From: an uncultured archaeon
GTDB lineage: Archaea > Altiarchaeota > Altiarchaeia > IMC4 > SCGC-AAA252-I15
Assembly (NCBI GenBank): GCA_902384455.1
Contig: CABMCB010000084.1
Location: forward strand, 1 to 11,062
Length of the DNA stretch: 11,062 nt
Direction of reading: 5' to 3'
Below, one piece after another: positions 2 to 11,062 of this stretch (positions are counted from its first letter, which is position 1; each line of letters opens with the position of its first letter). The translations under genes and the position numbers were made by a program. The notes under the pieces are model-generated. The model was not told the origin of the DNA, ran no database searches, and saw only the letters and a program-made list of their open reading frames with translations.

Positions 2-625
2 GTTAAGGCGGCTTTGAAGGCGGCTGAGTGTGTGGATGATTCTGGTTTGAAGGCGGCTGAGAATGAGGTTGCGGCGTTGAAGGAGGCGCAAAGTTCTTTG
101 GAGTTGAACGCGTACGGTCTTCTTTCTCCTTTGAGGAGGTTGTTGCGCAAGTTTGTGAAGTGGACTCCTTCAGAGGGGGTTGATTTTGCGGTGGTTTCCG
201 TCGCCAAGAAAATTGAGGAGGATCCGGTGGCGGCTTATTTTGACGGTGATGTGGACGTGCAGGGAGTCCTTAAGGCGCTTGAACTTTATTGTGGGCTGAA
301 AGAGAGCGGTTTGTCTGCTTCTGAGAGGAAGAAATTTATGGAGCGCATAGGCGTTGCGGGGAAGTTGCGCCCTAAGGAAGACCGTGAGAAACGTAAGGCG
401 CTTGTTGAGCGTTTGCGTCAGCTTAAGGATGCGACGGAAAATGACCTGTCAATTGTTAAGCGGAAGCAGCTTTTCAAGGAAGCGGAATCTCAGGCTGAAA
501 TCGTCAGGGAGCTAGCTAAGAAGGAGGAAAACATAAAGCATCTTCTGAGTCAGGCCGAAGATAAGTCAGTGCGGAAGAAGGATGAAATAAGCGTTCTTAA
601 GGCAAAGCTTGCTTCAGGCGGCTAA
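2..625 (+). CDS. Hypothetical coiled-coil protein, 5'-truncated
   Basis: The frame is open from position 2 (V-K-A-A-L-K...), so the TTG at 14 is probably not the true start. K/E/A/L-rich helical periodicity flanks a short globular segment (LSPLRRLLRKF...EEDPVAAYF). Stop TAA at 623-625, convergent with mvk across a 23-bp gap. Confidence 0.75.
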   Translation, partial: VKAALKAAECVDDSGLKAAENEVAALKEAQSSLELNAYGLLSPLRRLLRKFVKWTPSEGVDFAVVSVAKKIEEDPVAAYFDGDVDVQGVLKALELYCGLKESGLSASERKKFMERIGVAGKLRPKEDREKRKALVERLRQLKDATENDLSIVKRKQLFKEAESQAEIVRELAKKEENIKHLLSQAEDKSVRKKDEISVLKAKLASGG

Positions 626-648
626 TCCTTACTCCTAATCAATGGCGT

Positions 649-1578
649 TTAAACGCCGATTGTGGTTTTGAGTACTTGGAATCCTTCCGCTTCTATCGCG
701 GCTGCGACTGTGTTTTGAAGCTTTTTTCCTGGCGTCAAAGCGACCATGTATCCGCCTAGTCCTCCGCCCGTCATCTTGGCGCCCCATGCGCCGTTGGATT
801 TTGCCAGGGAAACTAGGAAATCAAGCTCATTGCTGCTTACTTCAATCAACTTAAGCAGCTCGTGAGCGCGGTCCATCAAGGCGCCGACTTCCTTCATGTC
901 GCCCGCCTCAAAAGCAGTCCGCGCCTTACCTGCAACTTCCCCTGCCTCATTGAATATCATGGTGTATTTGCCGGGAAACTTATCCTTGCGCTCTTTGACT
1001 CCTGCGACTGCCGCCTTGGTGTCTGCGACTTTGCCGGTGTTTCCCATCACAATCTCGACCGGCTTCTTAGTCTTGATGCGGTCCATGACGTTTGGCGAAC
1101 CTTTGACGAACCAGATGAGGCCTCCGTATGTTGCTGCGGTGTTGTCTATTCCGCTTGGTGTGCCGTGGTATCCTTTTTCTCCTTCGTATGCTATTTCGTT
1201 GATTTTTTCGTCGTTTAGTTTGAGTTTGAATTCGTCTGATAGGGCGCGCGCAAGTGCTGTGCATGATGCGGCTGAGGCTCCTACTCCGCTTGCGGCAAGG
1301 AGGTTTCCTGCGAACGTTATGTTGATGCCTGTTTTTGTTGGGTCTATTCCTGCTGCTGTTAGAACTCGGTTTATGCTGTCTTTCTGTTGGTCTAGTTTTT
1401 CCGTTTTGTATCCTGGCGTTGCGGGGCGGTCGTCTTTAAGCGTCCAGCCGGGTGTTTGTTTGCGGATTACTTCGCATGTGGTAGTGTCGCCTATTGCGGA
1501 AACAATCGACGGAACGCCGTGCACAACAAAATGCTCTCCAAAAAGAATTACTTTGCCGTATCCTTCACCGTTGCCCAT
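649..1578 (-). CDS. mvk: Mevalonate kinase (GHMP kinase family)
   Basis: Motifs GKVILFGEHFVVHG, ATP loop ASGVGASAA, HGTPSGIDN (catalytic Asp) and GAKMTGGGLGG; 309 aa; GGGTGG ribosome-binding site 7 nt upstream. Confidence 0.93.
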   Translation of the reverse strand: MGNGEGYGKVILFGEHFVVHGVPSIVSAIGDTTTCEVIRKQTPGWTLKDDRPATPGYKTEKLDQQKDSINRVLTAAGIDPTKTGINITFAGNLLAASGVGASAASCTALARALSDEFKLKLNDEKINEIAYEGEKGYHGTPSGIDNTAATYGGLIWFVKGSPNVMDRIKTKKPVEIVMGNTGKVADTKAAVAGVKERKDKFPGKYTMIFNEAGEVAGKARTAFEAGDMKEVGALMDRAHELLKLIEVSSNELDFLVSLAKSNGAWGAKMTGGGLGGYMVALTPGKKLQNTVAAAIEAEGFQVLKTTIGV

Positions 1579-1585
1579 TTAAAAT

Positions 1586-1591
1586 CCACCC
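1586..1591 (-). promoter_or_regulatory. Shine-Dalgarno-like site for mvk
   Basis: Minus strand reads GGGTGG-ATTTTAA-ATG. Confidence 0.55.
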
Positions 1592-1605
1592 GTAAAACAA
1601 TAGTT

Positions 1606-1652
1606 AAATAAAAAATAAAAAGAAAGTTGGGCGGAAACCCGCGGTCTCCGCC
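1606..1652 (-). terminator. Hairpin plus U-tract terminator downstream of ftsZ
   Basis: Minus strand stem-loop GGCGGAGACC-gcg-GGTTTCCGCC (10 bp, one G-U pair) starts 11 nt after the ftsZ stop and is followed by CAAC-TTTCTTTTTATTTTTTATTT. Confidence 0.7.
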
Positions 1653-1663
1653 TATTGTCCAGC

Positions 1664-2746
1664 TCAGACGAAACGTAAGCCTACTCCGTCGTCTCTTGAT
1701 ATGTATGGGGCTGGTTCGTCGTCGAATTCTACGGGGCCTTTTTGCGACATTATGTTGCGGGGTTTTACGCCTGAGACTATGCTTATGACTTCGAGTTTTC
1801 CTTCGAGTTCTTCTCTTATTCGGGCTCCCCACATTACGCTTCCGTGTTCGTCGAATCCTTCTGTCAGTAGTTTTCCTACTTCGTTGGCTTCTCCGATTGT
1901 CATGTCTGGGCCGCCTGATATGTGGATTATGGCTCCTTTGGCGCCTGTCATATCGACGTCTAGTAGCGGGTGGCTTCTTGTGTTTTTGACTGAGAGTGCT
2001 ACTCTGTCTGGTCCGTTTGCTTCTCCTACGCTTATTACTGAGACTTTGCCTCCTTCGAGTACGGCTTTGATGTCTGCGAAGTCGAGGTTGATTAGGCTGG
2101 GTTCTTTTATGGTTTCGGTTATTGCTCGTACTGCTCTTGCTACGACTTCGTCCGCCACCATGAATGCTTTGTCTACCGGCAGGTTGGGTACGTACTCCAT
2201 TAGTTTGTTGTTGTCTATGATTATGACGCTGTCGGATACTTTCTTTAGTTTTCGGATTCCTTCCTGCGCTCGCTCCTGTCTGCTTCTCTCCAGCTTGAAT
2301 GGGTAAGTCACCATTCCTACGACTATTGCGCCTTGGGCTTTGGCGATGTCGGCTATGATTGGCGCGCTTCCGGTGCCTGTTCCGCCTCCCATCCCAGCGC
2401 ATAAAAAGCATAGGTTGGTGTCCTTGAGTGCCTCCTCAATCTCGTGCGAACTCGCCTCGGCGGCCTTTGCTCCGATGTCGGGGAATCCGCCTGCTCCGAG
2501 GCCTCTCGTTATTTTTCCGCCGATTAGAACCTTGGAGATGTTGTTGTTGAGCTTTTGCAAGTCTTTTAGGTCGGTGTTGAATGCTAGCAGTTGGGCTCCT
2601 CCGATGCCCATCCGGCTTAGTCGGTTTACGGTGTTTCCTCCTCCTCCTCCTGCTCCCACAACTACGATTTTTAGGGAGTCTGAGTCGATTCCTTGTCCAG
2701 AATCAATTTTTGTTTCCAATGCCTCCTTAACTAAACTATCAAACAT
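1664..2746 (-). CDS. ftsZ: Cell division GTPase FtsZ, archaeal FtsZ2-like
   Basis: Motifs GAGGGGGN, NTD, GLGAGG, tubulin signature GMGGGTGTGSAP and T7 loop INLDFAD. Segments YVPNLP, ETIKEPSLIN, HPLLDVD and WGARI resemble FtsZ2 more than FtsZ1 (from recall of the families). GAGGG ribosome-binding site upstream. Confidence 0.97.
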   Translation of the reverse strand: MFDSLVKEALETKIDSGQGIDSDSLKIVVVGAGGGGGNTVNRLSRMGIGGAQLLAFNTDLKDLQKLNNNISKVLIGGKITRGLGAGGFPDIGAKAAEASSHEIEEALKDTNLCFLCAGMGGGTGTGSAPIIADIAKAQGAIVVGMVTYPFKLERSRQERAQEGIRKLKKVSDSVIIIDNNKLMEYVPNLPVDKAFMVADEVVARAVRAITETIKEPSLINLDFADIKAVLEGGKVSVISVGEANGPDRVALSVKNTRSHPLLDVDMTGAKGAIIHISGGPDMTIGEANEVGKLLTEGFDEHGSVMWGARIREELEGKLEVISIVSGVKPRNIMSQKGPVEFDDEPAPYISRDDGVGLRFV

Positions 2747-2867
2747 AGTGGTCCCTCTGGTGCTCTAAAATTACTTCCGACGCCTTAATTAACCTTCCTT
2801 AGCCGGCTGAAAATACGCGACTGGAAAACATTAAAACCCTTTTTACCTTTTAATCCAACATCACTAT
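2747..2867. promoter_or_regulatory. Divergent promoter region between ftsZ and rnp2
   Basis: 121-bp AT-rich gap between divergent starts. Candidate BRE/TATA elements: GGAAAACA-TTAAAA and TTTTTA on + (2823-2845); AAAAAGGG-TTTTAA and AAGG-TTAATTAA on -. Exact boxes cannot be resolved. Confidence 0.45.
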
Positions 2868-3221
2868 GTGCCAGCTGCAGTAAAGCCTACGCGGAGAGAA
2901 AGAAACCGCTACGTAGCCGTAACATTAGACTCAAAAAGGCCGTTGGACCGCAAAGAAGTGGGTCAGGCGTTGTGGGATTCTTACCTGCGCCTGTTTGGAG
3001 AATCCGGGGCAGCGGATGCGGGACTGTGGCTTATGGACTGGGAGGAGAACCGCGGAGTAATCAAAGTAACCCACAAATGCGTCGAAACACTAAGGCAAGC
3101 AGTCGCAACACTGCAATCAATAAACCAAACCCCAGTTCGGCCCCGAATAATCGGCGTGTCGGGGACGCTCAAGAAAACGCGCGAGCACTGGCTGAAAACA
3201 TCCACTAAAAAGAACTTATAA
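2868..3221 (+). CDS. rnp2: Ribonuclease P protein component 2 (Pop5/Rpp14 family)
   Basis: Motifs KPTRRERNRY, LFGESGAA, GVIKVTH and IIGVSGTLKK; 117 aa; GTG start with no obvious RBS (possibly leaderless). Confidence 0.92.
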   Translation: MPAAVKPTRRERNRYVAVTLDSKRPLDRKEVGQALWDSYLRLFGESGAADAGLWLMDWEENRGVIKVTHKCVETLRQAVATLQSINQTPVRPRIIGVSGTLKKTREHWLKTSTKKNL

Positions 3222-3223
3222 AT
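3207..3223 (+). promoter_or_regulatory. Putative BRE-TATA promoter of tRNA-Ile
   Basis: AAAAAGAAC-TTATAAA lies about 40 nt upstream of the mature tRNA 5' end and overlaps the last codon and stop of rnp2. Confidence 0.5.
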
Positions 3224-3259
3224 CCCCAACCCCCAATCACTACAATCCCACCAAGTCAC

Positions 3260-3334
3260 GGACCTGTAGCTCAGCTTGGTTAGAGCGTTCGACTGATAAT
3301 CGAAAGGCCCGGAGTTCAAATCTCCGCAGGTCCA
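3260..3334 (+). tRNA. tRNA-Ile (anticodon GAT), no intron
   Basis: Acceptor stem GGACCTG/CAGGTCC plus discriminator A; D-arm GCTC-AGCTTGGTTA-GAGC; anticodon arm TTCGA-CTGATAA-TCGAA (GAT at 3295-3297); T-arm CGGAG-TTCAAAT-CTCCG. It is followed by CCT, so CCA is not fully encoded. Confidence 0.97.
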
Positions 3335-3339
3335 CCTGA

Positions 3340-3354
3340 TTTTTTCTTTTTTTT
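3340..3354 (+). terminator. Oligo-T terminator after tRNA-Ile
   Basis: TTTTTTCTTTTTTTT lies 5 nt after the discriminator base, typical of archaeal U-tract terminators. Confidence 0.65.
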
Positions 3355-3461
3355 GGAATTTTGTCTTATCCCTGTGTTTTTGCTGAATTTTTCTCGTAAT
3401 TTGTGGGCGCTGTTTGTTTTATTTACTATTGGTTACGAATTTATTACGGGGGTTTTGTGTG

Positions 3462-3536
3462 ATGCAGAGAGGTCTTACTGTCTCTTTTGTTTTTCTTGCG
3501 GCAGTCTTTTTTTTGATCTCCCCTTTGGTGGATGCG
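3462..3536 (+). other. Sec signal peptide of the giant protein
   Basis: Basic N-region (MQR), hydrophobic core (LTVSFVFLAAVFFLI), Pro, then a V-D-A cleavage motif. Confidence 0.8.
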
Positions 3537-6500
3537 GTTGCGTGCGAGTTCCTTGACAATAGGGTGGATTGTTGCGCTGTTGAGGCTTGTGACTGGAGGG
3601 AAGACCGCTGTGGCGACGCCTTATTCGGGTTGAGGCCTGGATGCGAGGAGGTTGTTCCGCCTACGATCGTCTCTTGCACTCTGAATGAGACGAATGTGTC
3701 TGCTGGCTCTCAGGTTGCGGTTGATGTCGTAGTCAGTCACGGAGACCTTCATGTGGCGGAAGTAACTGTGACTTTCGATGAGGTTGCTTACGGATGTTCC
3801 GACGACCAACCTCACTGGTACACAGTATTGAACACGTCAGGTAAGGAGGGTTCTTACGGTTCGGAGGCGAACGCCCGCGATGAGGAGGGTAACAGGGCCG
3901 ATTCTATCAAGTGCGATTCCCTCAATGTTTATGTTGTTCCGCCTTCGATTTTAGACTGCTTCCTGTCTCCTGATGACGTCGAGCAAGGCGAGGATGTAGT
4001 CGCCAACGCTTCCGTGAGCGCAGGCTCGTACTCCCTCTCTTCAGTCTGGTTCGAGTACGACGGAACAAACAAATCCTATGACGGAAACGGAGGCGGCCGC
4101 TTTTGGGCGTCTTTGGCGACGTCTGCGCTTGAAGGAGTCTATCCGGTATTGGCTCGCGCCAACGACACGGACGGAAACTTTGCTTTGGAGTTTCCGTGCG
4201 GAAACTTCACTGTCACGACAACGACCACCACGACTACTACCACCACTACGACGACCACTACTACGATAAGCGGGTGGCTGGGTAACACACGAATTGCGGA
4301 AACATCCGAAGTATCCCTTAACCCCGTAATCGCCATTTTAGGCGGCGTACCCCACGTTGCTTGGGAAGACGCCAACGGCAGCGCAAGCCGAATATTCTAC
4401 TCCTCCTTCACCGGCAGCTGGGCTACCGCCGTCAACCTCACTTCACTTGGAACAGCCCGCAGGCCAGCCCTAATATCCAACGGCTCGGCATTAACGTTAA
4501 TTTGGGACGACAACCGCTCAGGAACCCGCAGAGTATACGCGAAGTGGTTTACTTCCTCATGGGGCACATCAAGCCAGGCAAGTGCCGGCGCAGCGGAAAA
4601 CGCCTCCGCCTGCTTCTCATCAGACGGAACACTACACGCAGCATGGCAGACGTCAGGCAGAATAACGTCACGCGCATACGTCAACGCCAACTGGACCACC
4701 GAAGAAAACGCGTCAAATGCCGGGTCAAGACCTGTCGTAGCTTACGACCACTCAAATCGCCTCAACATAATATACGCGGGAAGCCCGCTGGCTTACAGGC
4801 GCGGCACAGTCTCAGGAGTATCATACGGATTCACAGACACGGACGTAGACGGCCTGCCTGATTCGGTGGAGCTTGGTTACGCCAACCAGTCTCACAGCGA
4901 GTACAACGACGCCGACGCAGGAGCCACAAAGACTAATTCCACTGAATACGACACCGACGGCGACCACGTGCCCGACGGGTGGGTGGACGGCTGGACTTTT
5001 CTTTCAAACGGCACGTGGGGCCTTGACCCGACACTTAAGGACGGCTTGTTTGAGAAGTGGGAGGGCGAGGATGGCGACACAGACGGCGCCGTTGATGCGG
5101 GTGAAACAGACCCAAATTACGCCGACAGCGACGGCGACGGGCTGCCTGATGGATGGGAAGCTTGGTACGGACTCAACCCGCTGATTGCGTCCGGCGTGGA
5201 CGGCGCGTCAGGCGACTTCGACGGAGATAGTGTGGTTAATTCAGTCGAATACGCGCGGGGAACAGACCCCTCCAAATCCGACACTGACGGCGACGGCATA
5301 GGAGATTCCACCGAGATTTCCTACGGCTCAAACGCCACTTTCTACGACACGGACGGAGACGGAGTTGCGGACGGAAGCGAATACGCGCCTTGGACCGACT
5401 CAAACATCGACGGAGTAATAAACATCAAAGACTCAGACAGCGACAACGACGGCCTAATCGACGGCAAAGAATTAAGTCCGACGCTCGACTCGGACGGCGA
5501 CGGAAAAGCCAACGTCGTAGACTCAGACAGCGACGGCGACAACGTCACAGACGGCAAGGAACAATCATATAACATTGACTCCGACGGCGACGGGAAAGTC
5601 AACATGCTTGATTCCGACAGCGACAACGACGGAGTAAACGACGGAAACGAAGACTTAGACCGCGACGGAACAATAGAAGCATACAGCTATGAGACATCGC
5701 CAACAACCCCGGACACAGACGGAGACGGACTCTGGGACGGGGAAAACATCACAGTAGCCGGAACGTTCCACGGAGGCGAAACATCATACGGCACACTCAA
5801 ACTCGACGCAGACACAGACAACGACGGCCTAACCGACGGAGAAGAAGCCGGCGGCTACGAGCTGCACATACAAAACTCAAGCGGATACGTAAGGACAGTC
5901 ACTGCATATTCCAGCCCGCTACTAACGGACACAGACTCAGACGGCCTCTCAGACAACATAGAACGCGACTTCTCCGACCCATCCTCATCAGACACAGACG
6001 GCGACGGATTATCCGACGCTTTGGAGGACGCAAACGCCAACGGCATAACGGACGGAACAGAATCAAGCCCCACAGACGCAGACACAGACGACGACACATT
6101 AAGCGACTACTACGAAGTCATGGTGTCGCATACCCTCCCAAACAACAAGGACACCGACGGAGACGGCCTGTGGGATTACGAGGGCAGGCGGGTCGTATTT
6201 AGGACGAACGCGTCGGACTTTGACGCATTAGGCGAGTACGAGGAAACGTGGGTTTACGGCCGAAGCTTCCTTTTGAGTTGCATTCCCTCCGCCATGAACC
6301 GCGTTGTTTACGCAACGTACAATCTCACTTTCAACAGGTCTCTTACTACGGTGGGGAGCCCGCCTCCTGGAGCGAACCAAGTGTGGTACAACAGCAGCAA
6401 CGGATTTATCACCCTTGGAACAAACATAACCCTCCAGCAGACTGTATGCTGCAACTACACGTTCTACGGCTCATCCCACCAGTACAATGAATGCCATCCG

Positions 6501-9500
6501 GGCCCGGGAAGAACATACAATTTGGACATGGCGTTCGGAGGATTTGCGCCCGTAAGCGAACTTGCCTGCTGGGTCGTCAACAACAGGTCAAGCACACAAG
6601 CCCTCACCCGGACGTCTGGTACTCCGCAGGCGGGGCAATACCACCTCTCCGAGTCAGACCGCAACTTATCATTAAGCGAAAACGTCAACGACGTTTCAGG
6701 CCGCACCCTCACTTTCAATTATACTTGCCGCCCCTACTTTGACTACGCGGATTCACGAAACGATAATTCGTGGATTGCTTTCCATTTGTCCGGCGACACG
6801 CTTTATGGGTTGGGCAGAATCGACGGGAAAACGTTCTCAGACGCGGATTTAGTGAGGCGCCAGATGACTCCTTACTCAACCACCCCCGAAGAGTACGTCC
6901 TCTACGCGATGCTGAACTCCACCACACCCTACGGCGACGTATGGCAGGCGACATACGACGTAGGCTGGAAAAGCGACGGGGTAATAGCATTGTTTGTGGG
7001 GGCCAACGGAAGCGTCTACCGCTACAATGCGACGTCAGATTCAATAGAGATTCTTTCGTCGCCCACCACAAGCATCCTGCGCGGCGTAGACTATCGGCCT
7101 AACAGCAACACCGCGTTGATTGTGGGAGACGGGGGGACGCTGTTGGTATATAATGGAACTAGCATATACTCGCGTGCGTCAGGCACAAACGACAGTCTGC
7201 GGGACGTCGCTTGGAAGCCGGACGGCTCGTACGCGTTGATTGTCGGCGGAGACGGGTTAGGTGTTGGGCGCGTCCTAATCTACTACTCAAACGGCTCAGT
7301 CTCAACCCTCAATTCCGGCGTAACCGACCTCAACGCGGGAGCATTCACATACCTGAACTCCGTAGCCTGGCACCCAAACGGCACTTACGCATTGATAGCC
7401 GGAGACTGGCGCTCAACAAACAGAAACTACACTCAACTAGACGACAGAAACCGCGCCGGAGGAATAATCCCCGCAAACTGCACAATCACATACAACCTCC
7501 CCGCGCTACTCCTCTACAACGGCACTTTCACTCAAATAGACAAGCCGGGAATACGCTGGTACACGGGAATGCCATTCGGCAGGATAGAATGCTACCCCGA
7601 GTACCGCTACCTCTGGTGGACCCTCCAAGGCATCGCATTCAAACCCTCAACATCAACCGCAGCAATCACGGGACGAGGAAAACTCTACACATACGACACA
7701 TCATACGCCTACACCGAAACAAACATGGAAGGCGTTCTAGAATACAACAGCACATTCGGCCTGTACACAAACGAAGGAACAGTCACTTTAGGGAGGATTT
7801 CATTCACCGCCGACGGTAGTTACGCCTACTTCGTGGGCGGCAATGCGACGTACCGCCACAGCCCAGGCTACGGGTGGTCTTCCTACTTCAGGGCGCCATT
7901 AGTGGGCTCAACATACATGCGGGCCGCATCCATGAACCCCACCAGCAACATAACAATAAGCTTCTTTGCGGGAGACGTATTCCTCCTATACGGCAGCGTA
8001 ACATCAGTCCTAAAACACGATACTGCCCCATTCGCAATAGACGTGCCCGGAGACGCAAACCCCGCATACGGCTACGCATCAACAAACCCCCTTGCATGGG
8101 AAGGCTCACACGCCGAAACATCCGCGATACTCCAATCAGACTACGCAACCCGCCACCAAGAAAAATACGACGAAAACCTCGCAACCGACCCCCTCAACAG
8201 CGACACAGACGGAGACTACCTACTAGACGGCGACGAAACATCAATCCTCGAATACACAGACCCAGACGCAGACGGCCTCGCAAACCCACTCGACTCAGAC
8301 AGCGACAACGACGGACTACTCGACGGAGTCGAACCCCTCTGGAACGTGGACACAGACCACGACGGACTTGTGAACGCACTCGACTCAGACAGCGACAACG
8401 ACAACAATACCGACGCAACAGAAGTCCGCGTAATATTCCGCGTAGGAAGCACAAACTACACATCAGCCGGAAACTGGCTCGGAATATACAACGCAAGCAG
8501 CAGCACACTAGACGCATACAACTACCTCAATCCCACCGCAGGAAACACCACACCCATAACCCCAATGACATACACATTCCTTGGCGTAAACACCACAATC
8601 AAAACAGCCGAAGGATACGTAATATCCAAAACCGCAGACATATACGGCGGCATAATCCACATACCACTCGCAGAAGGAGGATACGCAAAATACGGCCACG
8701 TACAAACAATACCAAACAACACCCGCACACGCATACCAGAATACTCACTAACCGGCCGCGAAACATACGACGGAAGCCTAATGATAGGCACAGACCAAGA
8801 CGCAGACGGACTCGCAGACGCCGCAGACCCCTACCCAACCAACCCCGACGCAGACAACGACAGCCTCAAAGACGGATTCGAACATAACTGGAGCATAGAC
8901 ACAGACGGCGACGGCCTCACAAACATACTCGACGTCGACAGCGACAACGACGGTTTGCCTGACGGTTGGATAGATGGCTGGTGTTATAATGCGACGCGCG
9001 AAGGATTGCACCAGCACGCAAACGGCAGCATAGACGGGTGGGGCGTATGGTGCAATAGGACTGAAGGCATTAAGCAACGTTTTGAGGGAGAAGACTTGAA
9101 CCTCGACGGGGCCACGCTAAACGAAACAGACCCCTTAAGAAACGACACGGACGCCGACGACATCCTAGACGGCGCAGAAATCGCCATATACTCCACTGAC
9201 CCACTCATAGACTCAGACAGCGACGGCGACCGCGTATCAGACGCCGACGAACTAACAGGCTACTTCTGCGCAGGCGTCCTCGAAGCCGAAGACTTCTACT
9301 TCGGAAGAAACATAGCAGGATACTCCGAAATACTCTACCTCGCAGGAGGACTAGGCGCAAGAATACCCTACGGCAGCAGCATAACACTAAGAACAGTCGT
9401 CGAAACACCCGGCTACTACAACATAACCCTCTACGGATTCAACCTAAACAACACAATACTGCTGACCATAGCAAACGAAACAAACAAAACATCATACACC

Positions 9501-11062
9501 CTATACGTCGGCCCAAACAACAGCATCATTTACATGGGCAACCTCACTGCAGGCCTCCTTAACATCACCATCTACCCGTGGGAGTCGGGGAAGACCGCTC
9601 AGTTGGACCGCGTAGTCCTGTGGAAGCTGGGGTTGAACGCGTCAAACAACGACTCTGACGGCGACGGCATACTTGACGGCGACGAACGATTCAGGCTCGT
9701 GTCGCTTTCCGGCGGGACGACCATAATTGGGACTGCGCCGCTTTCAACAGACACGGACGGAGACGGCATGGGCGACGGCGAAGAACTGGCTGCCGGCACG
9801 TCAGGTTGGACGCAGGACTCCGACGGAGACGGAGTATCGGACACGTACGACTCCCAGCCGACGGAATTTATCGACGCTGGAAACAGCGAGTGGACGGACG
9901 AATTCCAGACGAACCTATTGGAATACAACGCTGAATACGTCATTTGGTGGCTTAACGGAACATCCTACTCCACAGGATACGGAGGCACGGAAGGCAGCCT
10001 CGGAAACGAGGGAGTCAAAGACAGCGACGTAACAGAAGAAGGAATCATCTCGTCATTAAATGGCCAGTACGACGCCGCAGACAACGCCACATTCAAGAAC
10101 TCGTACGTAGTGCGCGACATAGAACGCGACCCCTCACGATACAGCCACTCCGACAGCGACTTCATATACGAGCACGAATACGACCCATACCCAAAATACC
10201 GCCTGCACTACGACTACAACGGCTGGTTCTACAACGTCACAGTCACAAACAAACAGTCAGTCAACGTCGTCGCAGGAAGAGGAATGGTCCCAACATACCC
10301 GTGGACAATCTCGGACTACAACAGGGAAACCCACTACGTCCACACAACCAACGAAATATTCATAGAACGCGGAAAACCCCAAAGCGTCATCATAGAATTC
10401 AGCATATCCACCGAAAGAGACATAACATTCCGCGACTCAGACACATACTACGCGCTCCCAGCGGTAGAATACGTTTTCTACAAAAACGGGGGGCTAAACA
10501 ACGGAACAAACAACATCCTATACGGAGGAACAGCCGTAGCATCCAAACTCGACCCTGCACCCTGGGCCCACTCATACAGAATCTCAATCAACCTGCCGGC
10601 ATCCTACGCAACCCAAGACTCAGCAATACTCTTCATGATGCCCATGTTCATCCGAAGAACAGGCAACGAATACCAAAAGGAAAACATATACCTATCAGAC
10701 TTCTACGTCGCCTCCCTCCAAACCCAAGTCCCACAACACTCCTACGCAGCAATAACCAAAACAGAAGGCAACCTCACCCTGCTCACCGGCTCAATACCCA
10801 CAAACATAACTTCATACCACACAGGCACCAACACATTCGGAGCATTCAACACATACGTATTCAACTACGCAAACGAAACAGACACGCAAGACATACCAAC
10901 CAGCCAGATAGACACAGCGCTCACATCATCAGACGCAGTAGTCATAATCGCCACAACCGATGCATTAGTCGCCCAAATACAAAACACCGTAAACTGGACC
11001 GCCGCATGGTACATAGAAACAACAGACGACGACAACCTAACAAGCCGCACATTCAAAAAGAC
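3462..11062 (+). CDS. Giant secreted multidomain glycoprotein with DxDxDG Ca-binding (TSP3-like) repeats and beta-propellers; 3'-truncated, at least 2533 aa
   Basis: Manual translation from ATG 3462 (MQRGLTVSFVFLAAVFFLISPLVDA...) meets no stop before the window end (...DDDNLTSRTFKK). The ORF track lists nothing in this frame after 3221, consistent with a run-off ORF. The previous in-frame stop is TGA at 3384 and GGGGG lies at 3448-3452. Domain content is coherent and N-x-S/T sequons are abundant. Confidence 0.95.
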   Translation, partial: MQRGLTVSFVFLAAVFFLISPLVDAVACEFLDNRVDCCAVEACDWREDRCGDALFGLRPGCEEVVPPTIVSCTLNETNVSAGSQVAVDVVVSHGDLHVAEVTVTFDEVAYGCSDDQPHWYTVLNTSGKEGSYGSEANARDEEGNRADSIKCDSLNVYVVPPSILDCFLSPDDVEQGEDVVANASVSAGSYSLSSVWFEYDGTNKSYDGNGGGRFWASLATSALEGVYPVLARANDTDGNFALEFPCGNFTVTTTTTTTTTTTTTTTTTISGWLGNTRIAETSEVSLNPVIAILGGVPHVAWEDANGSASRIFYSSFTGSWATAVNLTSLGTARRPALISNGSALTLIWDDNRSGTRRVYAKWFTSSWGTSSQASAGAAENASACFSSDGTLHAAWQTSGRITSRAYVNANWTTEENASNAGSRPVVAYDHSNRLNIIYAGSPLAYRRGTVSGVSYGFTDTDVDGLPDSVELGYANQSHSEYNDADAGATKTNSTEYDTDGDHVPDGWVDGWTFLSNGTWGLDPTLKDGLFEKWEGEDGDTDGAVDAGETDPNYADSDGDGLPDGWEAWYGLNPLIASGVDGASGDFDGDSVVNSVEYARGTDPSKSDTDGDGIGDSTEISYGSNATFYDTDGDGVADGSEYAPWTDSNIDGVINIKDSDSDNDGLIDGKELSPTLDSDGDGKANVVDSDSDGDNVTDGKEQSYNIDSDGDGKVNMLDSDSDNDGVNDGNEDLDRDGTIEAYSYETSPTTPDTDGDGLWDGENITVAGTFHGGETSYGTLKLDADTDNDGLTDGEEAGGYELHIQNSSGYVRTVTAYSSPLLTDTDSDGLSDNIERDFSDPSSSDTDGDGLSDALEDANANGITDGTESSPTDADTDDDTLSDYYEVMVSHTLPNNKDTDGDGLWDYEGRRVVFRTNASDFDALGEYEETWVYGRSFLLSCIPSAMNRVVYATYNLTFNRSLTTVGSPPPGANQVWYNSSNGFITLGTNITLQQTVCCNYTFYGSSHQYNECHPGPGRTYNLDMAFGGFAPVSELACWVVNNRSSTQALTRTSGTPQAGQYHLSESDRNLSLSENVNDVSGRTLTFNYTCRPYFDYADSRNDNSWIAFHLSGDTLYGLGRIDGKTFSDADLVRRQMTPYSTTPEEYVLYAMLNSTTPYGDVWQATYDVGWKSDGVIALFVGANGSVYRYNATSDSIEILSSPTTSILRGVDYRPNSNTALIVGDGGTLLVYNGTSIYSRASGTNDSLRDVAWKPDGSYALIVGGDGLGVGRVLIYYSNGSVSTLNSGVTDLNAGAFTYLNSVAWHPNGTYALIAGDWRSTNRNYTQLDDRNRAGGIIPANCTITYNLPALLLYNGTFTQIDKPGIRWYTGMPFGRIECYPEYRYLWWTLQGIAFKPSTSTAAITGRGKLYTYDTSYAYTETNMEGVLEYNSTFGLYTNEGTVTLGRISFTADGSYAYFVGGNATYRHSPGYGWSSYFRAPLVGSTYMRAASMNPTSNITISFFAGDVFLLYGSVTSVLKHDTAPFAIDVPGDANPAYGYASTNPLAWEGSHAETSAILQSDYATRHQEKYDENLATDPLNSDTDGDYLLDGDETSILEYTDPDADGLANPLDSDSDNDGLLDGVEPLWNVDTDHDGLVNALDSDSDNDNNTDATEVRVIFRVGSTNYTSAGNWLGIYNASSSTLDAYNYLNPTAGNTTPITPMTYTFLGVNTTIKTAEGYVISKTADIYGGIIHIPLAEGGYAKYGHVQTIPNNTRTRIPEYSLTGRETYDGSLMIGTDQDADGLADAADPYPTNPDADNDSLKDGFEHNWSIDTDGDGLTNILDVDSDNDGLPDGWIDGWCYNATREGLHQHANGSIDGWGVWCNRTEGIKQRFEGEDLNLDGATLNETDPLRNDTDADDILDGAEIAIYSTDPLIDSDSDGDRVSDADELTGYFCAGVLEAEDFYFGRNIAGYSEILYLAGGLGARIPYGSSITLRTVVETPGYYNITLYGFNLNNTILLTIANETNKTSYTLYVGPNNSIIYMGNLTAGLLNITIYPWESGKTAQLDRVVLWKLGLNASNNDSDGDGILDGDERFRLVSLSGGTTIIGTAPLSTDTDGDGMGDGEELAAGTSGWTQDSDGDGVSDTYDSQPTEFIDAGNSEWTDEFQTNLLEYNAEYVIWWLNGTSYSTGYGGTEGSLGNEGVKDSDVTEEGIISSLNGQYDAADNATFKNSYVVRDIERDPSRYSHSDSDFIYEHEYDPYPKYRLHYDYNGWFYNVTVTNKQSVNVVAGRGMVPTYPWTISDYNRETHYVHTTNEIFIERGKPQSVIIEFSISTERDITFRDSDTYYALPAVEYVFYKNGGLNNGTNNILYGGTAVASKLDPAPWAHSYRISINLPASYATQDSAILFMMPMFIRRTGNEYQKENIYLSDFYVASLQTQVPQHSYAAITKTEGNLTLLTGSIPTNITSYHTGTNTFGAFNTYVFNYANETDTQDIPTSQIDTALTSSDAVVIIATTDALVAQIQNTVNWTAAWYIETTDDDNLTSRTFKK
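3651..4214 (+). repeat. Two tandem 94-aa Ig-like beta-sandwich repeats
   Basis: 3651-3932 (VVPPTIVSC...NTSGKEGSY...ARDEEGN...CDSLNV) and 3933-4214 (VVPPSILDC...ATSALEGVY...ANDTDGN...CGNFTV). Each is 282 nt with conserved first and last Cys. Confidence 0.8.
4215..4265 (+). repeat. Poly-Thr linker (17 Thr, ACN x17)
   Basis: 17 consecutive ACN codons with mixed third positions. Confidence 0.95.
4275..4805 (+). other. Four BNR/sialidase-like propeller blades
   Basis: Roughly 45-aa repeats of W...P-x-[IL]...H[VA]AW...[IV][FY]: PHVAWED, LTLIWDD, LHAAWQT, LNIIYAG. Confidence 0.6.
4836..6182 (+). repeat. DxDxDG Ca-binding repeat tract 1 (about 18 units)
   Basis: Runs from DTDVDGLPDSVE to DTDGDGLWDYE; consensus D[TS]DGDG[LVI]xDGxE...TDPxxxD. 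Confidence 0.9.
6945..8012 (+). other. Seven-bladed WD40-like beta-propeller
   Basis: Blade starts: YDVGWKSDG, LRGVDYRPNS, LRDVAWKPDG, LNSVAWHPNG, LQGIAFKPST, LGRISFTADG, MRAASMNPTS; each is followed by an ALIVG-like strand. Confidence 0.8.
8202..9860 (+). repeat. DxDxDG repeat tracts 2-4 (about 14 units), interrupted by inserted domains
   Basis: Tracts at 8202-8423 (5 units), 8793-9251 (6 units) and 9651-9860 (3 units). Confidence 0.85.
9276..9623 (+). other. CBM6/CBM35-like jelly-roll domain
   Basis: Begins VLEAEDF, contains TPGYYNITLY and GNLTAGLLNITI, and ends QLDRVVLW. This matches the EAE...G-x-Y...L-x-x-G...[LI]D-x-[IV] pattern of galactose-binding-like folds. Confidence 0.6.

What the first reader, a model, noticed from the sequence alone, without database searches (positions are those of the whole stretch)
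3462..11062. Hidden >2500-aa secreted archaeal giant protein absent from the ORF track
Seen: one stop-free frame covers 69% of the window, with a signal peptide, about 32 DxDxDG units, two propeller regions and Ig-like and CBM-like domains. Known: DxDxDG/TSP3-like repeats bind Ca2+, and propellers and CBMs are common adhesion modules. Inference: a Ca-stiffened surface adhesin or cell-contact filament, a large investment if the host is a small-genome archaeon.
Basis: partly seen in the sequence, partly recalled or inferred. Interest (0 to 1): 0.8.

Follow-up and report, generated by a model that had tools for sequence, protein, structure and literature searches.

The report
Large calcium-repeat archaeal surface protein gene
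The long open frame is a real gene for a roughly 2,860-residue secreted, sugar-coated, calcium-binding surface protein of an uncultured archaeon, cut in two by a contig break, and its conserved tail end belongs to no described protein family.

Summary
Frame +3 is stop-free from 3414 to the window end, with an ATG at 3462 and a signal-peptide-like N-terminus. The window is a whole contig (C84). The gene continues on contig C90 through an exact 16-nt end overlap that keeps the frame, giving 8,577 nt, 2,858 aa and about 309 kDa.

The protein carries 34 Ca-loop units in four TSP3 arrays, a 4-repeat and a 7-repeat propeller-type region, weakly supported Ig-like domains, and a beta-sandwich whose predicted fold matches CBM35/CBM6. 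N-glycosylation sequons are enriched 2.4-fold over shuffles.

It is not an orphan. Co-linear but uncharacterised homologues of 2,050-3,308 aa (28-35% identity) exist in metagenomes; two are labelled archaeon and Micrarchaeota. All share a C-terminal module of about 700 aa: a beta-rich domain plus a terminal helical bundle with a Gly/Ala-rich hydrophobic hairpin. This module has no Pfam, NCBIfam or PDB match, and always sits at the extreme C-terminus.

Best reading: a membrane-tethered, Ca-stiffened adhesin or tether. The host assembly is 2.41 Mb, so it is not a small genome. Function and anchoring are inferred, not shown. Novelty: a new variant of a known kind.

The parts
3260..3336 (+). tRNA-Ile (anticodon GAT), immediately upstream and followed by a T-rich run. 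It is a neighbour, not part of the gene.
   Evidence: ARAGORN. Rfam tRNA, 74.1 bits against a gathering score of 29. Sequence read.
3462..3542 (+). Start codon ATG and signal-peptide-like N-terminus (aa 1-27). A G-rich run lies about 8 nt before the ATG.
   Evidence: Translation and sequence. KD19 maximum 2.49 at aa 5-23. The G017 orthologue also starts with a hydrophobic leader. No signal-peptide predictor was run.
3543..3677 (+). Cys-rich N-terminal knob (aa 28-72; 7 of the 23 Cys in the protein)
   Evidence: Cys positions. A similar Cys-rich stretch is present in the G017 orthologue.
3678..4226 (+). Two tandem Ig-like beta domains (aa ~73-255)
   Evidence: Big_13 E 5.5e-4, 20.8 bits, below the cut-off of 27. 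Stretches within aa ~153-285 match large open frames in related genomes at 32-43% identity. Weak; not folded.
4227..4277 (+). Poly-threonine linker (about 17 Thr)
   Evidence: Translation. The G017 orthologue has a much longer Ser/Thr linker.
4278..4826 (+). First propeller-type region: 4 repeats of about 45 aa (aa ~273-455)
   Evidence: Repeats read. 32% identity (E 2e-9) to the N-terminus of the next gene on C90. That gene scores weakly on TIGR04275 beta_prop_Msarc: 32.9 bits against a cut-off of 85. Not folded.
4827..6206 (+). TSP3 array 1: 20 Ca-loop units with a Trp-rich insert (aa ~456-915)
   Evidence: Loop count. TSP3_bac 28.3 bits against a cut-off of 25 on this piece. The Asp/Glu ligand columns are invariant across the 10-row family alignment. 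A PDB profile search hit only Ca-repeat proteins (5wtl, 3fby).
6207..6941 (+). Middle domain opening with the conserved v-x-F-R-T-N motif (aa ~916-1160). No family match.
   Evidence: No Pfam hit and no PDB hit. 47% identity to the G017 orthologue over this domain plus the second propeller.
6942..8186 (+). Second propeller: 7 repeats of the 'W-K-P-D-G-S-Y-A-L-I-V-G' type (aa ~1161-1575)
   Evidence: WD40 24.0 bits against a cut-off of 27, plus other sub-threshold propeller models. 14 database proteins match this region, and most carry propeller Pfam families. Repeat-by-repeat alignment to P0003. Not folded.
8187..8417 (+). TSP3 array 2: 5 units (aa ~1576-1652)
   Evidence: conserved ligand columns.
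8418..8786 (+). Second domain opening with the F-R-x motif (aa ~1653-1775). No family match.
   Evidence: No Pfam hit. It shares only a 12-column motif with the middle domain (hhalign probability 23.6%).
8787..9257 (+). TSP3 array 3: 6 units with a second Trp-rich insert (aa ~1776-1932)
9324..9635 (+). Beta-sandwich with a CBM35/CBM6-type fold (aa ~1955-2058)
   Evidence: AlphaFold2 model mcc805629e3d0, residues 24-122, eight strands, block pLDDT 60-83. VIA-align: 2w47_A CBM35 Z 10.6, rmsd 2.2, 99 aligned; 2cdp_B CBM6 Z 10.4. Also 3zm8_A Z 10.2. No CBM family listed for this piece at E <= 1; only a weak TIG hit.
9636..9863 (+). TSP3 array 4: 3 units (aa ~2059-2134)
   Evidence: TSP3_bac 34.1 bits against a cut-off of 25 on this piece.
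9864..11062 (+). Family-defining beta-rich C-domain (aa 2135-2533), cut by the contig end. The gene continues on contig C90, nt 17-989, with the stop at 990-992. That part holds a linker and a 175-aa helical bundle.
   Evidence: 19 hits at E <= 1e-3 among 1.84 billion representatives. No Pfam, NCBIfam or PDB match. Model mostly pLDDT 70-95 with strands of 18-22 residues. Junction. Tail model.

Best explanation
One real gene encodes a 2,858-aa, ~309-kDa, very acidic, Sec-exported and N-glycosylated cell-surface protein of an uncultured archaeon. It spans window 3462-11062 and continues on contig C90 to a stop at nt 990-992.

Proposed working. The N-terminal signal peptide takes the chain across the membrane. 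The conserved terminal helical bundle, with its Gly/Ala-rich hydrophobic helix hairpin, holds the C-terminus at the cell membrane. Four arrays of 34 TSP3-type loops bind Ca2+ and stiffen the chain into an extended stalk. The stalk presents binding modules outward: a Cys-rich knob, Ig-like domains, two propeller-type regions and a CBM35/6-fold sandwich. These would bind glycans, surfaces or other cells.

Shown here: the gene, its continuity, its repeats, the sequon enrichment, the family, the CBM-type predicted fold and the helical predicted tail.

Inferred: calcium binding, glycosylation, membrane anchoring, orientation and adhesion.
For: GENE IS REAL.
- The frame is open for 2,549 codons, log10 P = -44, while the other five frames are full of stops.
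- A same-family genome holds an orthologue at 50% identity over aa 272-1595.
- Eight co-linear homologues of 2,050-3,308 aa match at 28-35% identity.

CONTINUITY ACROSS THE CONTIG BREAK.
- The tails of 8 of 9 family proteins hit only C90, nt ~66-986 (the ninth, P0018, gave no C90 hit).
- The last 16 nt of C84 equal the first 16 nt of C90, and the frame is kept.
- That 16-mer occurs nowhere else in the assembly. Only 5 junctions in the assembly have end overlaps of 10 nt or more.

EXPORT AND GLYCOSYLATION.
- The N-terminus looks like a signal peptide.
- There are 74 sequons against 31.2 +/- 4.8 in shuffles; 0 of 2,000 shuffles reach 74.
- Sequon density is 2.92 per 100 aa against 0.79 in the genome's long open frames. 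The tail's only 2 sequons lie in its first ~35 residues, by inspection of the printed translation.

CALCIUM.
- The 34 loops are confined to four arrays.
- TSP3_bac passes its cut-off on two pieces.
- The ligand Asp/Glu columns are invariant or nearly so in the family while the flanks vary.
- The only PDB profile hits are Ca-repeat proteins.

BINDING MODULES. The CBM35/6 fold scores Z 10.6. Propeller repeats are seen.

ANCHOR.
- The tail core sits at the extreme C-terminus in 37 of 37 metagenome loci, and in the database homologues apart from P0028, which ends inside the tail.
- The predicted tail is a bundle of six helices at block pLDDT 73-93. Helices 213-234 and 238-259 coincide with the family's hydrophobic maximum.
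- No other strongly hydrophobic segment exists after the signal peptide. One 1.58 window lies inside propeller 2.
Against: - The tail's hydrophobicity is borderline for a membrane span: the family-mean KD19 maximum is 1.48, and 1.62-1.71 in this protein, with Asp, Glu or Lys inside the segments.
- No membrane-topology predictor was available.
- The tail fold has no significant structural neighbour: Foldseek best E 0.31; VIA best Z 5.9, below the noise level the tool states for helical bundles. So 'anchor' rests on position and composition alone.
- One homologue (P0025) carries an N-terminal SLH wall-binding domain. That would put the N-terminus, not the tail, at the cell.
- The genome's other large surface proteins end in a classical single hydrophobic helix plus a basic tail. 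This protein does not.
- No ligand, calcium or expression data exist.
Confidence: 0.55

Rival explanations
1. The protein is a structural envelope component: an S-layer-like or canopy protein, or a tether between the membrane and an outer layer. On this reading it is not an adhesin for outside targets. The calcium arrays would set the spacing or rigidity of the envelope.
For: Archaeal surface-layer proteins built from propeller, PKD and CARDB modules are described for a Micrarchaeota strain (PMC5498576, passages read). The next gene on C90 encodes a propeller-plus-CARDB secreted protein. One homologue has both an SLH domain and the tail, as a two-ended tether would.
Against: The C-domain is rare: it was found in 1 of 61 genomes of the phylum, and the N-terminal two-thirds in one more. 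It is a single copy in its genome. The architecture varies between homologues, some of which lack propeller 2 or the middle domain. A core envelope protein would be expected to be more widespread and uniform.
Confidence: 0.15
2. The protein is released rather than anchored. It would be a secreted matrix or biofilm glycoprotein that cross-links polysaccharide and calcium. The C-terminal bundle would then serve oligomerisation or folding.
For: The tail's hydrophobicity is borderline for a membrane span. Thrombospondin-family proteins, the source of the TSP3 motif, are secreted oligomeric matrix proteins; COMP was among the PDB profile hits. A CBM-type fold is present.
Against: The tail core is strictly terminal and conserved across very different N-terminal cargoes. 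The tail's only 2 sequons lie in its first ~35 residues, so its conserved part has none, unlike the rest of the chain.
Confidence: 0.15
3. The C-terminal helical bundle is a membrane-inserting device aimed at another cell. A hydrophobic hairpin sheathed by amphipathic helices would work like colicin-type or Bcl-2-type pore formers. The stalk would deliver it during cell-cell contact, for example between a symbiont and its host.
For: The predicted bundle is all-helical and contains one conserved hydrophobic hairpin with a Pro-x-Tyr-Gly turn. Homologues occur in an archaeon labelled Micrarchaeota, a group with host-attached members (PMC5498576 passages). The SLH-bearing homologue would place the tail distally.
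Against: No sequence or fold match to any pore-forming family was found. The tail is conserved rather than polymorphic. No membrane-protein immunity-like gene follows it: the conserved 180-aa downstream ORF in the soil-type loci is soluble, and it is absent here. Burial of the hairpin in the model was not measured.
Confidence: 0.1
4. The long frame is an assembly artefact: a chimeric contig or a false join of C84 and C90. On this reading it is not one gene.
For: The genome is a 103-contig metagenome assembly, and repeats are hard to assemble. The overlap is only 16 nt. No read evidence spans the junction.
Against: Homologues are co-linear over the whole length and across the junction. The 16-mer is unique to the two contig ends. 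An independent public run holds three short pieces of the gene, 504 nt in all, with no differences.
Confidence: 0.03

Closest known systems
Uncharacterised metagenomic homologues P0017, P0018 (NCBI MFH0961098.1, 'archaeon'), P0019, P0021, P0022, P0023 (MFH1285064.1, 'Candidatus Micrarchaeota archaeon'), P0025 and P0020
   Same: Co-linear domain order from the first propeller-type region to the terminal bundle, at 28-35% identity. They share the TSP3 arrays with Trp-rich inserts, the CBM-type region, the C-domain and the tail.
   Different: All are annotated only as hypothetical. The Cys-rich knob, two Ig-like domains and poly-Thr linker are found only here and in the G017 orthologue. Some homologues lack propeller 2 or the middle domain, or carry CARDB, FG-GAP, PKD or SLH domains instead.
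Bacterial TSP3-repeat surface proteins, e.g. Myxococcus CglD (NCBIfam NF033765) and the OmpA-family TSP3 protein 5wtl
   Same: The same D-x-D-x-D-G-x-x-D-x-x-E loop arrays.
   Different: The CglD score of 177 bits is far below the cut-off of 400, and the best stretch (aa 456-737) lies inside TSP3 array 1. No Pfam or NCBIfam model other than the repeat families was reported for the whole protein. This protein is archaeal, N-glycosylation-rich and has a different C-terminus.
Ca2+-stiffened giant adhesins of bacteria (RTX adhesin type; recalled, not fetched)
   Same: The proposed logic is the same: a calcium-rigid repetitive stalk that holds ligand-binding modules away from the cell.
   Different: No GGxGxD nonapeptide repeats are present: 0 matches. 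Export uses an N-terminal signal peptide rather than a C-terminal type 1 secretion signal. The stalk is built of TSP3 loops, not Ig-like repeats.
Archaeal surface proteins built from propeller, PKD and CARDB modules (Mia14, PMC5498576) and giant nanohaloarchaeal surface proteins of 8,880-9,409 aa (PMC10266531)
   Same: [quoted passage not shown]
   Different: No VirB4/TraG-like ATPase domain was reported by Pfam. This protein is one third the size of the nanohaloarchaeal ones. TSP3 arrays and the C-terminal module are not mentioned in the passages I read.
Dockerin-type giant proteins of Omnitrophota (bioRxiv 10.1101/2023.11.21.568195)
   Same: Predicted membrane-anchored extracellular proteins rich in bacterial TSP3 repeats (passages read).
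   Different: Those are bacterial, 30,000 aa or more, and carry dockerin and discoidin repeats. This protein, at 2,858 aa, lies below that paper's 10,000-aa threshold for 'large'.

Membership tests
Bacterial TSP3 repeat (Pfam PF18884) | HMM score at or above the gathering cut-off (25 bits) | tested here: met
   28.3 bits on aa 454-923 and 34.1 bits on aa 2064-2133. The whole-protein score is only 19.7. 9 of 10 family-alignment members match.
Bacterial TSP3 repeat (Pfam PF18884) | Arrays of D-x-D-x-D-G-x-x-D-x-x-E loops that bind Ca2+ | tested here: inconclusive
   Motif present: 34 loops, of which 13 are fully canonical, with the ligand columns conserved. Calcium binding itself cannot be tested with these tools.
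CglD gliding-motility lipoprotein (NCBIfam NF033765) | Equivalog score at or above 400 bits over the full length | tested here: not met
   177 bits. The best stretch covers aa 456-737 against model positions 104-415 of 1,124, which is repeats only. No lipobox motif.
WD40-type / YVTN-type beta-propeller | Family HMM above cut-off and a closed 6-8-blade fold | tested here: inconclusive
   WD40 24.0 bits against a cut-off of 27; other propeller models are far below theirs. Seven repeats read; strong repeat matches to proteins with precomputed propeller Pfam families. PDB best hit is a WD40 protein at E 0.2. Not folded.
Carbohydrate-binding modules CBM6 / CBM35 / CBM36 | Beta-sandwich fold of the family | tested here: met
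   Predicted model residues 22-125: 2w47_A Z 10.6, rmsd 2.2 A, 99 of 135 aligned; 2cdp_B Z 10.4; 3zm8_A Z 10.2. The same fold also appears in non-lectin proteins in those lists (Cry toxin domain III, GOLD domains, collagen-binding domains).
Carbohydrate-binding modules CBM6 / CBM35 / CBM36 | Sequence-family membership and sugar- or Ca-binding residues | tested here: inconclusive
   No CBM family listed for this piece at E <= 1; only a weak TIG hit. phmmer against PDB gave nothing relevant. Binding-site residues were not examined. Identity to the hits is 14-16%.
RTX adhesins / type 1 secretion substrates | GGxGxD nonapeptide repeats and a C-terminal secretion signal | tested here: not met
   0 matches to GG.G.D in either part of the protein. 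An N-terminal signal peptide is present instead.
PGF-CTERM / archaeosortase or LPXTG sorting signals | PGF or LPXTG motif, then a hydrophobic helix and a basic tail at the C-terminus | tested here: not met
   No PGF or LPxTG motif. NCBIfam finds no family in the 329-aa tail at E <= 0.1. The protein ends in an acidic, non-hydrophobic stretch.
Nanohaloarchaeal giant surface proteins (SPEARE type) | VirB4/TraG-like ATPase domain inside a giant surface protein (as stated in PMC10266531) | tested here: not met
   No ATPase family was reported by Pfam or NCBIfam on the whole protein or its pieces.
Colicin-type / Bcl-2-type pore-forming helical bundles | Sequence or fold match to the family; a buried hydrophobic hairpin | tested here: inconclusive
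   No Pfam or NCBIfam hit on the tail. These families are not among the listed fold neighbours; best Z 5.9 and best E 0.31. A hydrophobic hairpin exists, but its burial was not measured.

The most novel reading that the evidence does not exclude
The conserved C-terminal module of about 700 aa may be an undescribed membrane device. It consists of a beta-rich domain with 18-22-residue strands, plus a terminal six-helix bundle around a Gly/Ala-rich hydrophobic hairpin. It is shared by archaeal proteins and by proteins in bacteria-like contexts. It could be a new class of C-terminal anchor, or a bundle that inserts into a partner cell's membrane at the end of a calcium-stiffened stalk, as host-attached archaea would need.
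Probability: 0.12. Interest if true: 0.8.

Novelty: new variant of a known kind. Interest (0 to 1): 0.42.

Why it matters
Large modular surface proteins are how uncultured archaea touch their surroundings and each other, and almost none has been studied.

This one gives a complete, well-delimited example. It has a clear stalk-and-module design, a testable calcium dependence, and a glycan-binding-type fold. It also defines a conserved terminal module with no entry in Pfam, NCBIfam or the PDB. That module was seen in 19 cluster representatives and 37 metagenome loci.

If the module proves to be a membrane anchor or an inserting device, it would add a new way of fixing proteins to prokaryotic envelopes. 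It would also provide a sequence marker for finding such proteins.

Practically, the case shows that open-ended frames at contig ends hide the largest genes of draft genomes. Short exact end overlaps, checked against homologues, can rejoin them.

Tried and rejected
SEARCHES THAT FAILED OR FOUND NOTHING.
- A whole-length search of the 5.8-billion-protein set timed out.
- The same set found nothing for the C-domain among proteins of 1,393-4,433 aa, nor for the tail among longer proteins. This is a word-filter limit, because the exhaustive search did find relatives.
- The genome-contig scan returned only the G017 contig, titled 'uncultured archaeon'.

GENOMIC CONTEXT.
- No paralogue exists in the host's own genome.
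- The tail is not a general sorting signal in this genome: it hits 1 of 16,139 six-frame segments.

STRUCTURE AND FAMILY SEARCHES.
- PDB sequence searches on single domains and on profiles gave only Ca-repeat hits or nothing.
- The two F-R-T-N-led domains were not shown to be homologous.
- The tail model has no significant structural neighbour.
- In searches with the 600-residue model, the CBM-type domain filled the lists. The C-domain was therefore barely tested. Foldseek and viral-library rows spanning it have TM-scores of 0.06-0.15 and rmsd above 20 A, and were set aside.

IDEAS DROPPED.
- A colicin-like immunity gene was considered for the 180-aa ORF downstream of the soil-type loci. It was dropped because that ORF has no hydrophobic segment.
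- The sigma-70 promoter scan found nothing, and it does not apply to archaea anyway.

READS AND EXPRESSION.
- No RNA holder was listed.
- The single DNA run holds only 504 nt of the gene and says nothing about the junction or the habitat.

LITERATURE. Searches listed no paper that describes this family. That library lacks most subscription journals, and supplements were not seen.

Full report
OBSERVATION.
Frame +3 of the window is open from 3414 to 11060, which is 2,549 codons without a stop, and it runs off the end. That is 69.1% of the window. With the region's own base composition the chance of no stop is about 1e-44. The other five frames over the same stretch hold 54 to 130 stops each. 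An ordinary ORF list misses the frame only because it has no stop in the window.

The ATG at 3462 lies about 8 nt after a G-rich run. It opens a protein with one basic residue, a hydrophobic core of about 17 residues (KD19 2.49) and an A-V-A site before Cys28. No signal-peptide predictor was available, so this part is read from the sequence.

THE GENE IS LONGER THAN THE WINDOW.
The window is the whole of contig C84 of a 2,411,449-base, 103-contig assembly (91.9% complete, 0.9% contamination). An exhaustive HMMER search with the last 399 residues found 19 proteins at E <= 1e-3. Eight of them are 2,050-3,308 aa long and carry the match about 350 residues before their end.

I ran nine of these proteins against the host's own genome. 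The C-terminal parts of eight hit one other place, the first ~990 nt of contig C90. The last 16 nt of C84 are identical to the first 16 nt of C90. The reading frame is kept across them, and the frame then runs 329 codons from the C90 start to a stop at C90 990-992. The 16-mer occurs nowhere else in the assembly, and only five contig junctions have exact end overlaps of 10 nt or more.

The gene is therefore 8,577 nt. The product has 2,858 aa, weighs about 309 kDa, has 405 acidic against 160 basic residues, and has a pI near 4.1. No read evidence spans the junction. The only public run found holds three short pieces, 504 nt in total and identical to the window, elsewhere in the gene.

HOST AND NEIGHBOURS.
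Upstream lie mevalonate kinase, FtsZ, an RNase P Pop5 subunit and tRNA-Ile(GAT), so the host is an archaeon. Its phylum holds 61 species genomes in the collection searched, all in one class, with rounded sizes of 0.8 to 2.5 Mb. I could not name the phylum. The host is not a small-genome organism by the standard of its relatives, and the gene takes 0.36% of the assembly.

Two genes follow on C90. The first encodes a secreted protein with propeller-type repeats and a CARDB domain. The second encodes a 630-aa polytopic membrane protein with no family match. Housekeeping genes come after them.

ANATOMY, FROM N- TO C-TERMINUS (residues counted from the ATG).
- Signal peptide, aa 1-27.
- Cys-rich stretch, aa 28-72.
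- Two Ig-like domains, aa ~73-255. Support is weak: Big_13 scores 20.8 bits against a cut-off of 27.
- Poly-Thr linker.
- Four repeats of about 45 aa, aa ~273-455. They are of the kind seen in the neighbouring gene (32% identity, E 2e-9), which itself scores weakly on TIGR04275.
- TSP3 array 1 with 20 Ca loops.
- A 245-aa domain with no family match.
- A seven-repeat propeller, aa ~1161-1575. WD40 scores 24.0 bits against 27; strong repeat matches to propeller proteins appear.
- TSP3 array 2 with 5 loops.
- A 123-aa domain with no family match.
- TSP3 array 3 with 6 loops.
- A beta-sandwich.
- TSP3 array 4 with 3 loops.
- A 399-aa C-domain.
- On C90: a linker of about 150 residues and a terminal bundle of 175 residues.

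All 34 loops fall inside the four arrays. Strict DxDxDG occurs 26 times. TSP3_bac passes its cut-off on two pieces.

Sequons number 74 against 31.2 +/- 4.8 in 2,000 shuffles, none of which reaches 74. Their density is 2.92 per 100 aa against 0.79 in the genome's long open frames. The tail has 2 sequons in 329 aa; by inspection of the printed translation both lie in its first ~35 residues, so the conserved tail core has none.

PREDICTED FOLDS.
Two AlphaFold2 jobs were available.

The model of aa 1934-2533 used 32 alignment rows and reached mean pLDDT 77.0 and pTM 0.65. It shows:
- an eight-strand sandwich at model residues 24-122;
- TSP3 loops;
- a beta-rich C-domain with strands of 18-22 residues and a small alpha/beta end.

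The sandwich matches carbohydrate-binding modules: CBM35 2w47_A (Z 10.6, rmsd 2.2 A, 99 aligned), CBM6 2cdp_B (Z 10.4) and GH26-CBM35 3zm8_A (Z 10.2). The same fold also occurs in non-lectin proteins in those lists, so sugar binding is a lead and not a result. Because this domain filled the hit lists, the C-domain was barely tested. The rows that span it have very low TM-scores and were set aside.

The tail model used 31 rows and reached mean pLDDT 61.5. Residues 1-87 and 101-154 are below pLDDT 50. From residue ~160 to the end, the 10-residue block means are 73-93. That part consists of six helices and one small hairpin. Helices 213-234 and 238-259 are joined by a conserved Pro-x-Tyr-Gly turn. 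They coincide with the family's hydrophobic maximum, a mean KD19 of 1.48. No structural neighbour is significant: Foldseek best E 0.31, and VIA best Z 5.9, below the tool's stated noise level for helical bundles.

The alignments had misplaced rows at the query ends. This may lower confidence there.

FAMILY AND SPREAD.
Eight long homologues align co-linearly at 28-35% identity, and the same-family orthologue at 48% over the rows aligned (50% by tblastn). The Asp/Glu loop positions are invariant or nearly so, while the residues between them vary. Some homologues lack propeller 2 or the middle domain. Others carry CARDB, FG-GAP, PKD or an N-terminal SLH domain. Only two carry names, 'archaeon' and 'Candidatus Micrarchaeota archaeon', and both are labelled hypothetical.

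In the host's own phylum the C-domain was found in 1 of 61 genomes, which is the host itself. Among 40 relatives, only G017 has a long orthologue. It covers aa 272-1595 at 50% identity, then diverges, apparently after a frameshift. The other 20 relatives that matched share only single Ig-like or TSP3 stretches.

The C-terminal module also ends shorter proteins with different N-terminal parts. A motif scan of metagenome contigs confirmed 37 of 117 candidate stretches. In all 37 the tail core lies at the extreme C-terminus. A tree of 35 C-domains splits into two well-supported clades (99/98). This protein lies on a long branch among the long TSP3 proteins.

Some of the shorter, soil-type loci look bacterial, with a QueA gene nearby, and one homologue has an SLH domain. 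This is only a hint that the module crosses domains.

Neither the tail nor the C-domain has a second copy in the host genome. The tail is therefore not a general sorting tag there.

MECHANISM.
The best-supported reading is a cell-tethered stalk. The chain is exported by its signal peptide and glycosylated outside. It is held by the terminal bundle, stiffened by calcium in the four loop arrays, and it presents binding modules outward.

Shown: the gene, repeats, conservation, sequon bias, predicted folds and terminal position of the tail.

Inferred: calcium binding, anchoring, orientation and adhesion.

Against anchoring stand three points: the borderline hydrophobicity, the lack of any fold relative, and the SLH-bearing homologue, which could put the other end of the protein at the cell.

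The rivals are a structural envelope protein, a released matrix protein, a tail that inserts into another cell's membrane, and an assembly artefact. Each is set out with its evidence in the Rival explanations section.

COMPARISON WITH WHAT IS KNOWN.
- The protein works like the calcium-stiffened giant adhesins of bacteria (recalled, not fetched). It is not one of them: it has no GGxGxD repeats, and it has an N-terminal signal.
- It shares only its repeats with CglD: 177 bits against a cut-off of 400.
- It belongs to the broad class of modular archaeal surface proteins described for a Micrarchaeota strain (PMC5498576, passages).
- It is far smaller than, and lacks the ATPase domain of, the nanohaloarchaeal giant proteins (PMC10266531, passages).
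- TSP3-rich membrane-anchored giants are described for Omnitrophota bacteria (bioRxiv 10.1101/2023.11.21.568195, passages). By that paper's 10,000-aa threshold this protein is not 'giant'.
- For the Dx[DN]xDG motif review (PMC3123361) I saw only the search listing and the start of the abstract.
- Five literature searches listed no paper that describes this family. Supplements were closed, and the library is incomplete.

VERDICT.
This is a real, ordinary-in-kind but well-defined large surface protein gene. Its most interesting feature is the undescribed conserved C-terminal module. I rate it a new variant of a known kind, of moderate interest.

Noticed in passing
window 649-3221: Housekeeping archaeal genes lie upstream: mevalonate kinase (649-1578, minus strand), FtsZ (1664-2746, minus strand) and the RNase P Pop5 subunit (2868-3221, plus strand). 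The 5'-open frame 2-625 has no family beyond a weak VirB4-like hit (E 0.005).
   Followed up: partly
L019 (G000:C90) 985-2370: The next gene after the giant encodes a secreted protein with propeller-type repeats (like aa 273-455 of the giant) and a CARDB domain. It ends in G-G-W-N-L-I-S-L. A near-identical G-W-N-L-I-S-I motif ends the out-of-frame continuation of the G017 orthologue. This may be a lineage-specific C-terminal motif.
   Followed up: partly
L019 (G000:C90) 2470-4362: A 630-aa protein with about eight or nine hydrophobic segments, a large C-terminal soluble part and a final hydrophobic segment. It has no Pfam or NCBIfam match. Its position beside a sequon-rich glycoprotein gene suggests a glycosylation or export helper, but nothing supports this yet.
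   Followed up: partly
L003 (G017:C12) 475-6055: The only long orthologue (1,703 aa) stops shortly after the second propeller. Another frame continues through a D-S-D-G-D unit and an Ig-like stretch to 6055. This suggests a frameshift or sequencing error, and a C-terminal half different from the window's protein.
   Followed up: partly
L028, L038, L033, L022 (metagenome loci): In the soil-type loci the tail-bearing protein (1,235-1,580 aa; Big_7 plus TSP3) is followed directly by a conserved, soluble, basic 180-aa ORF with no family. In three of the four (L028, L038, L022) a ~950-aa ORF comes next, and Pfam calls it an Lhr-type helicase in the two that were scanned (L028, L038).
   Followed up: partly
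G000 contig ends: Four other contig pairs share exact end overlaps: C63/C53 42 nt, C14/C103 34 nt, C96/C39 25 nt and C51/C12 13 nt. These could be used to scaffold the assembly.
   Followed up: no
G000 contigs C51, C17, C47, C32: Other large 5'-open frames run into contig starts: 1,698, 1,003, 826 and 276 aa. The ones on C51, C47 and C32 end in a classical hydrophobic helix plus a basic tail. The genome therefore holds several more truncated large surface proteins with a different anchor.
   Followed up: no
G024:C6, G024:C20, G016:C24 (relatives): Related genomes of the same order hold open frames of 3,622, 2,640 and 2,205 aa. They share only the Ig-like domain of aa ~153-285 (32-43% identity). 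Very large surface proteins seem common in this order.
   Followed up: no
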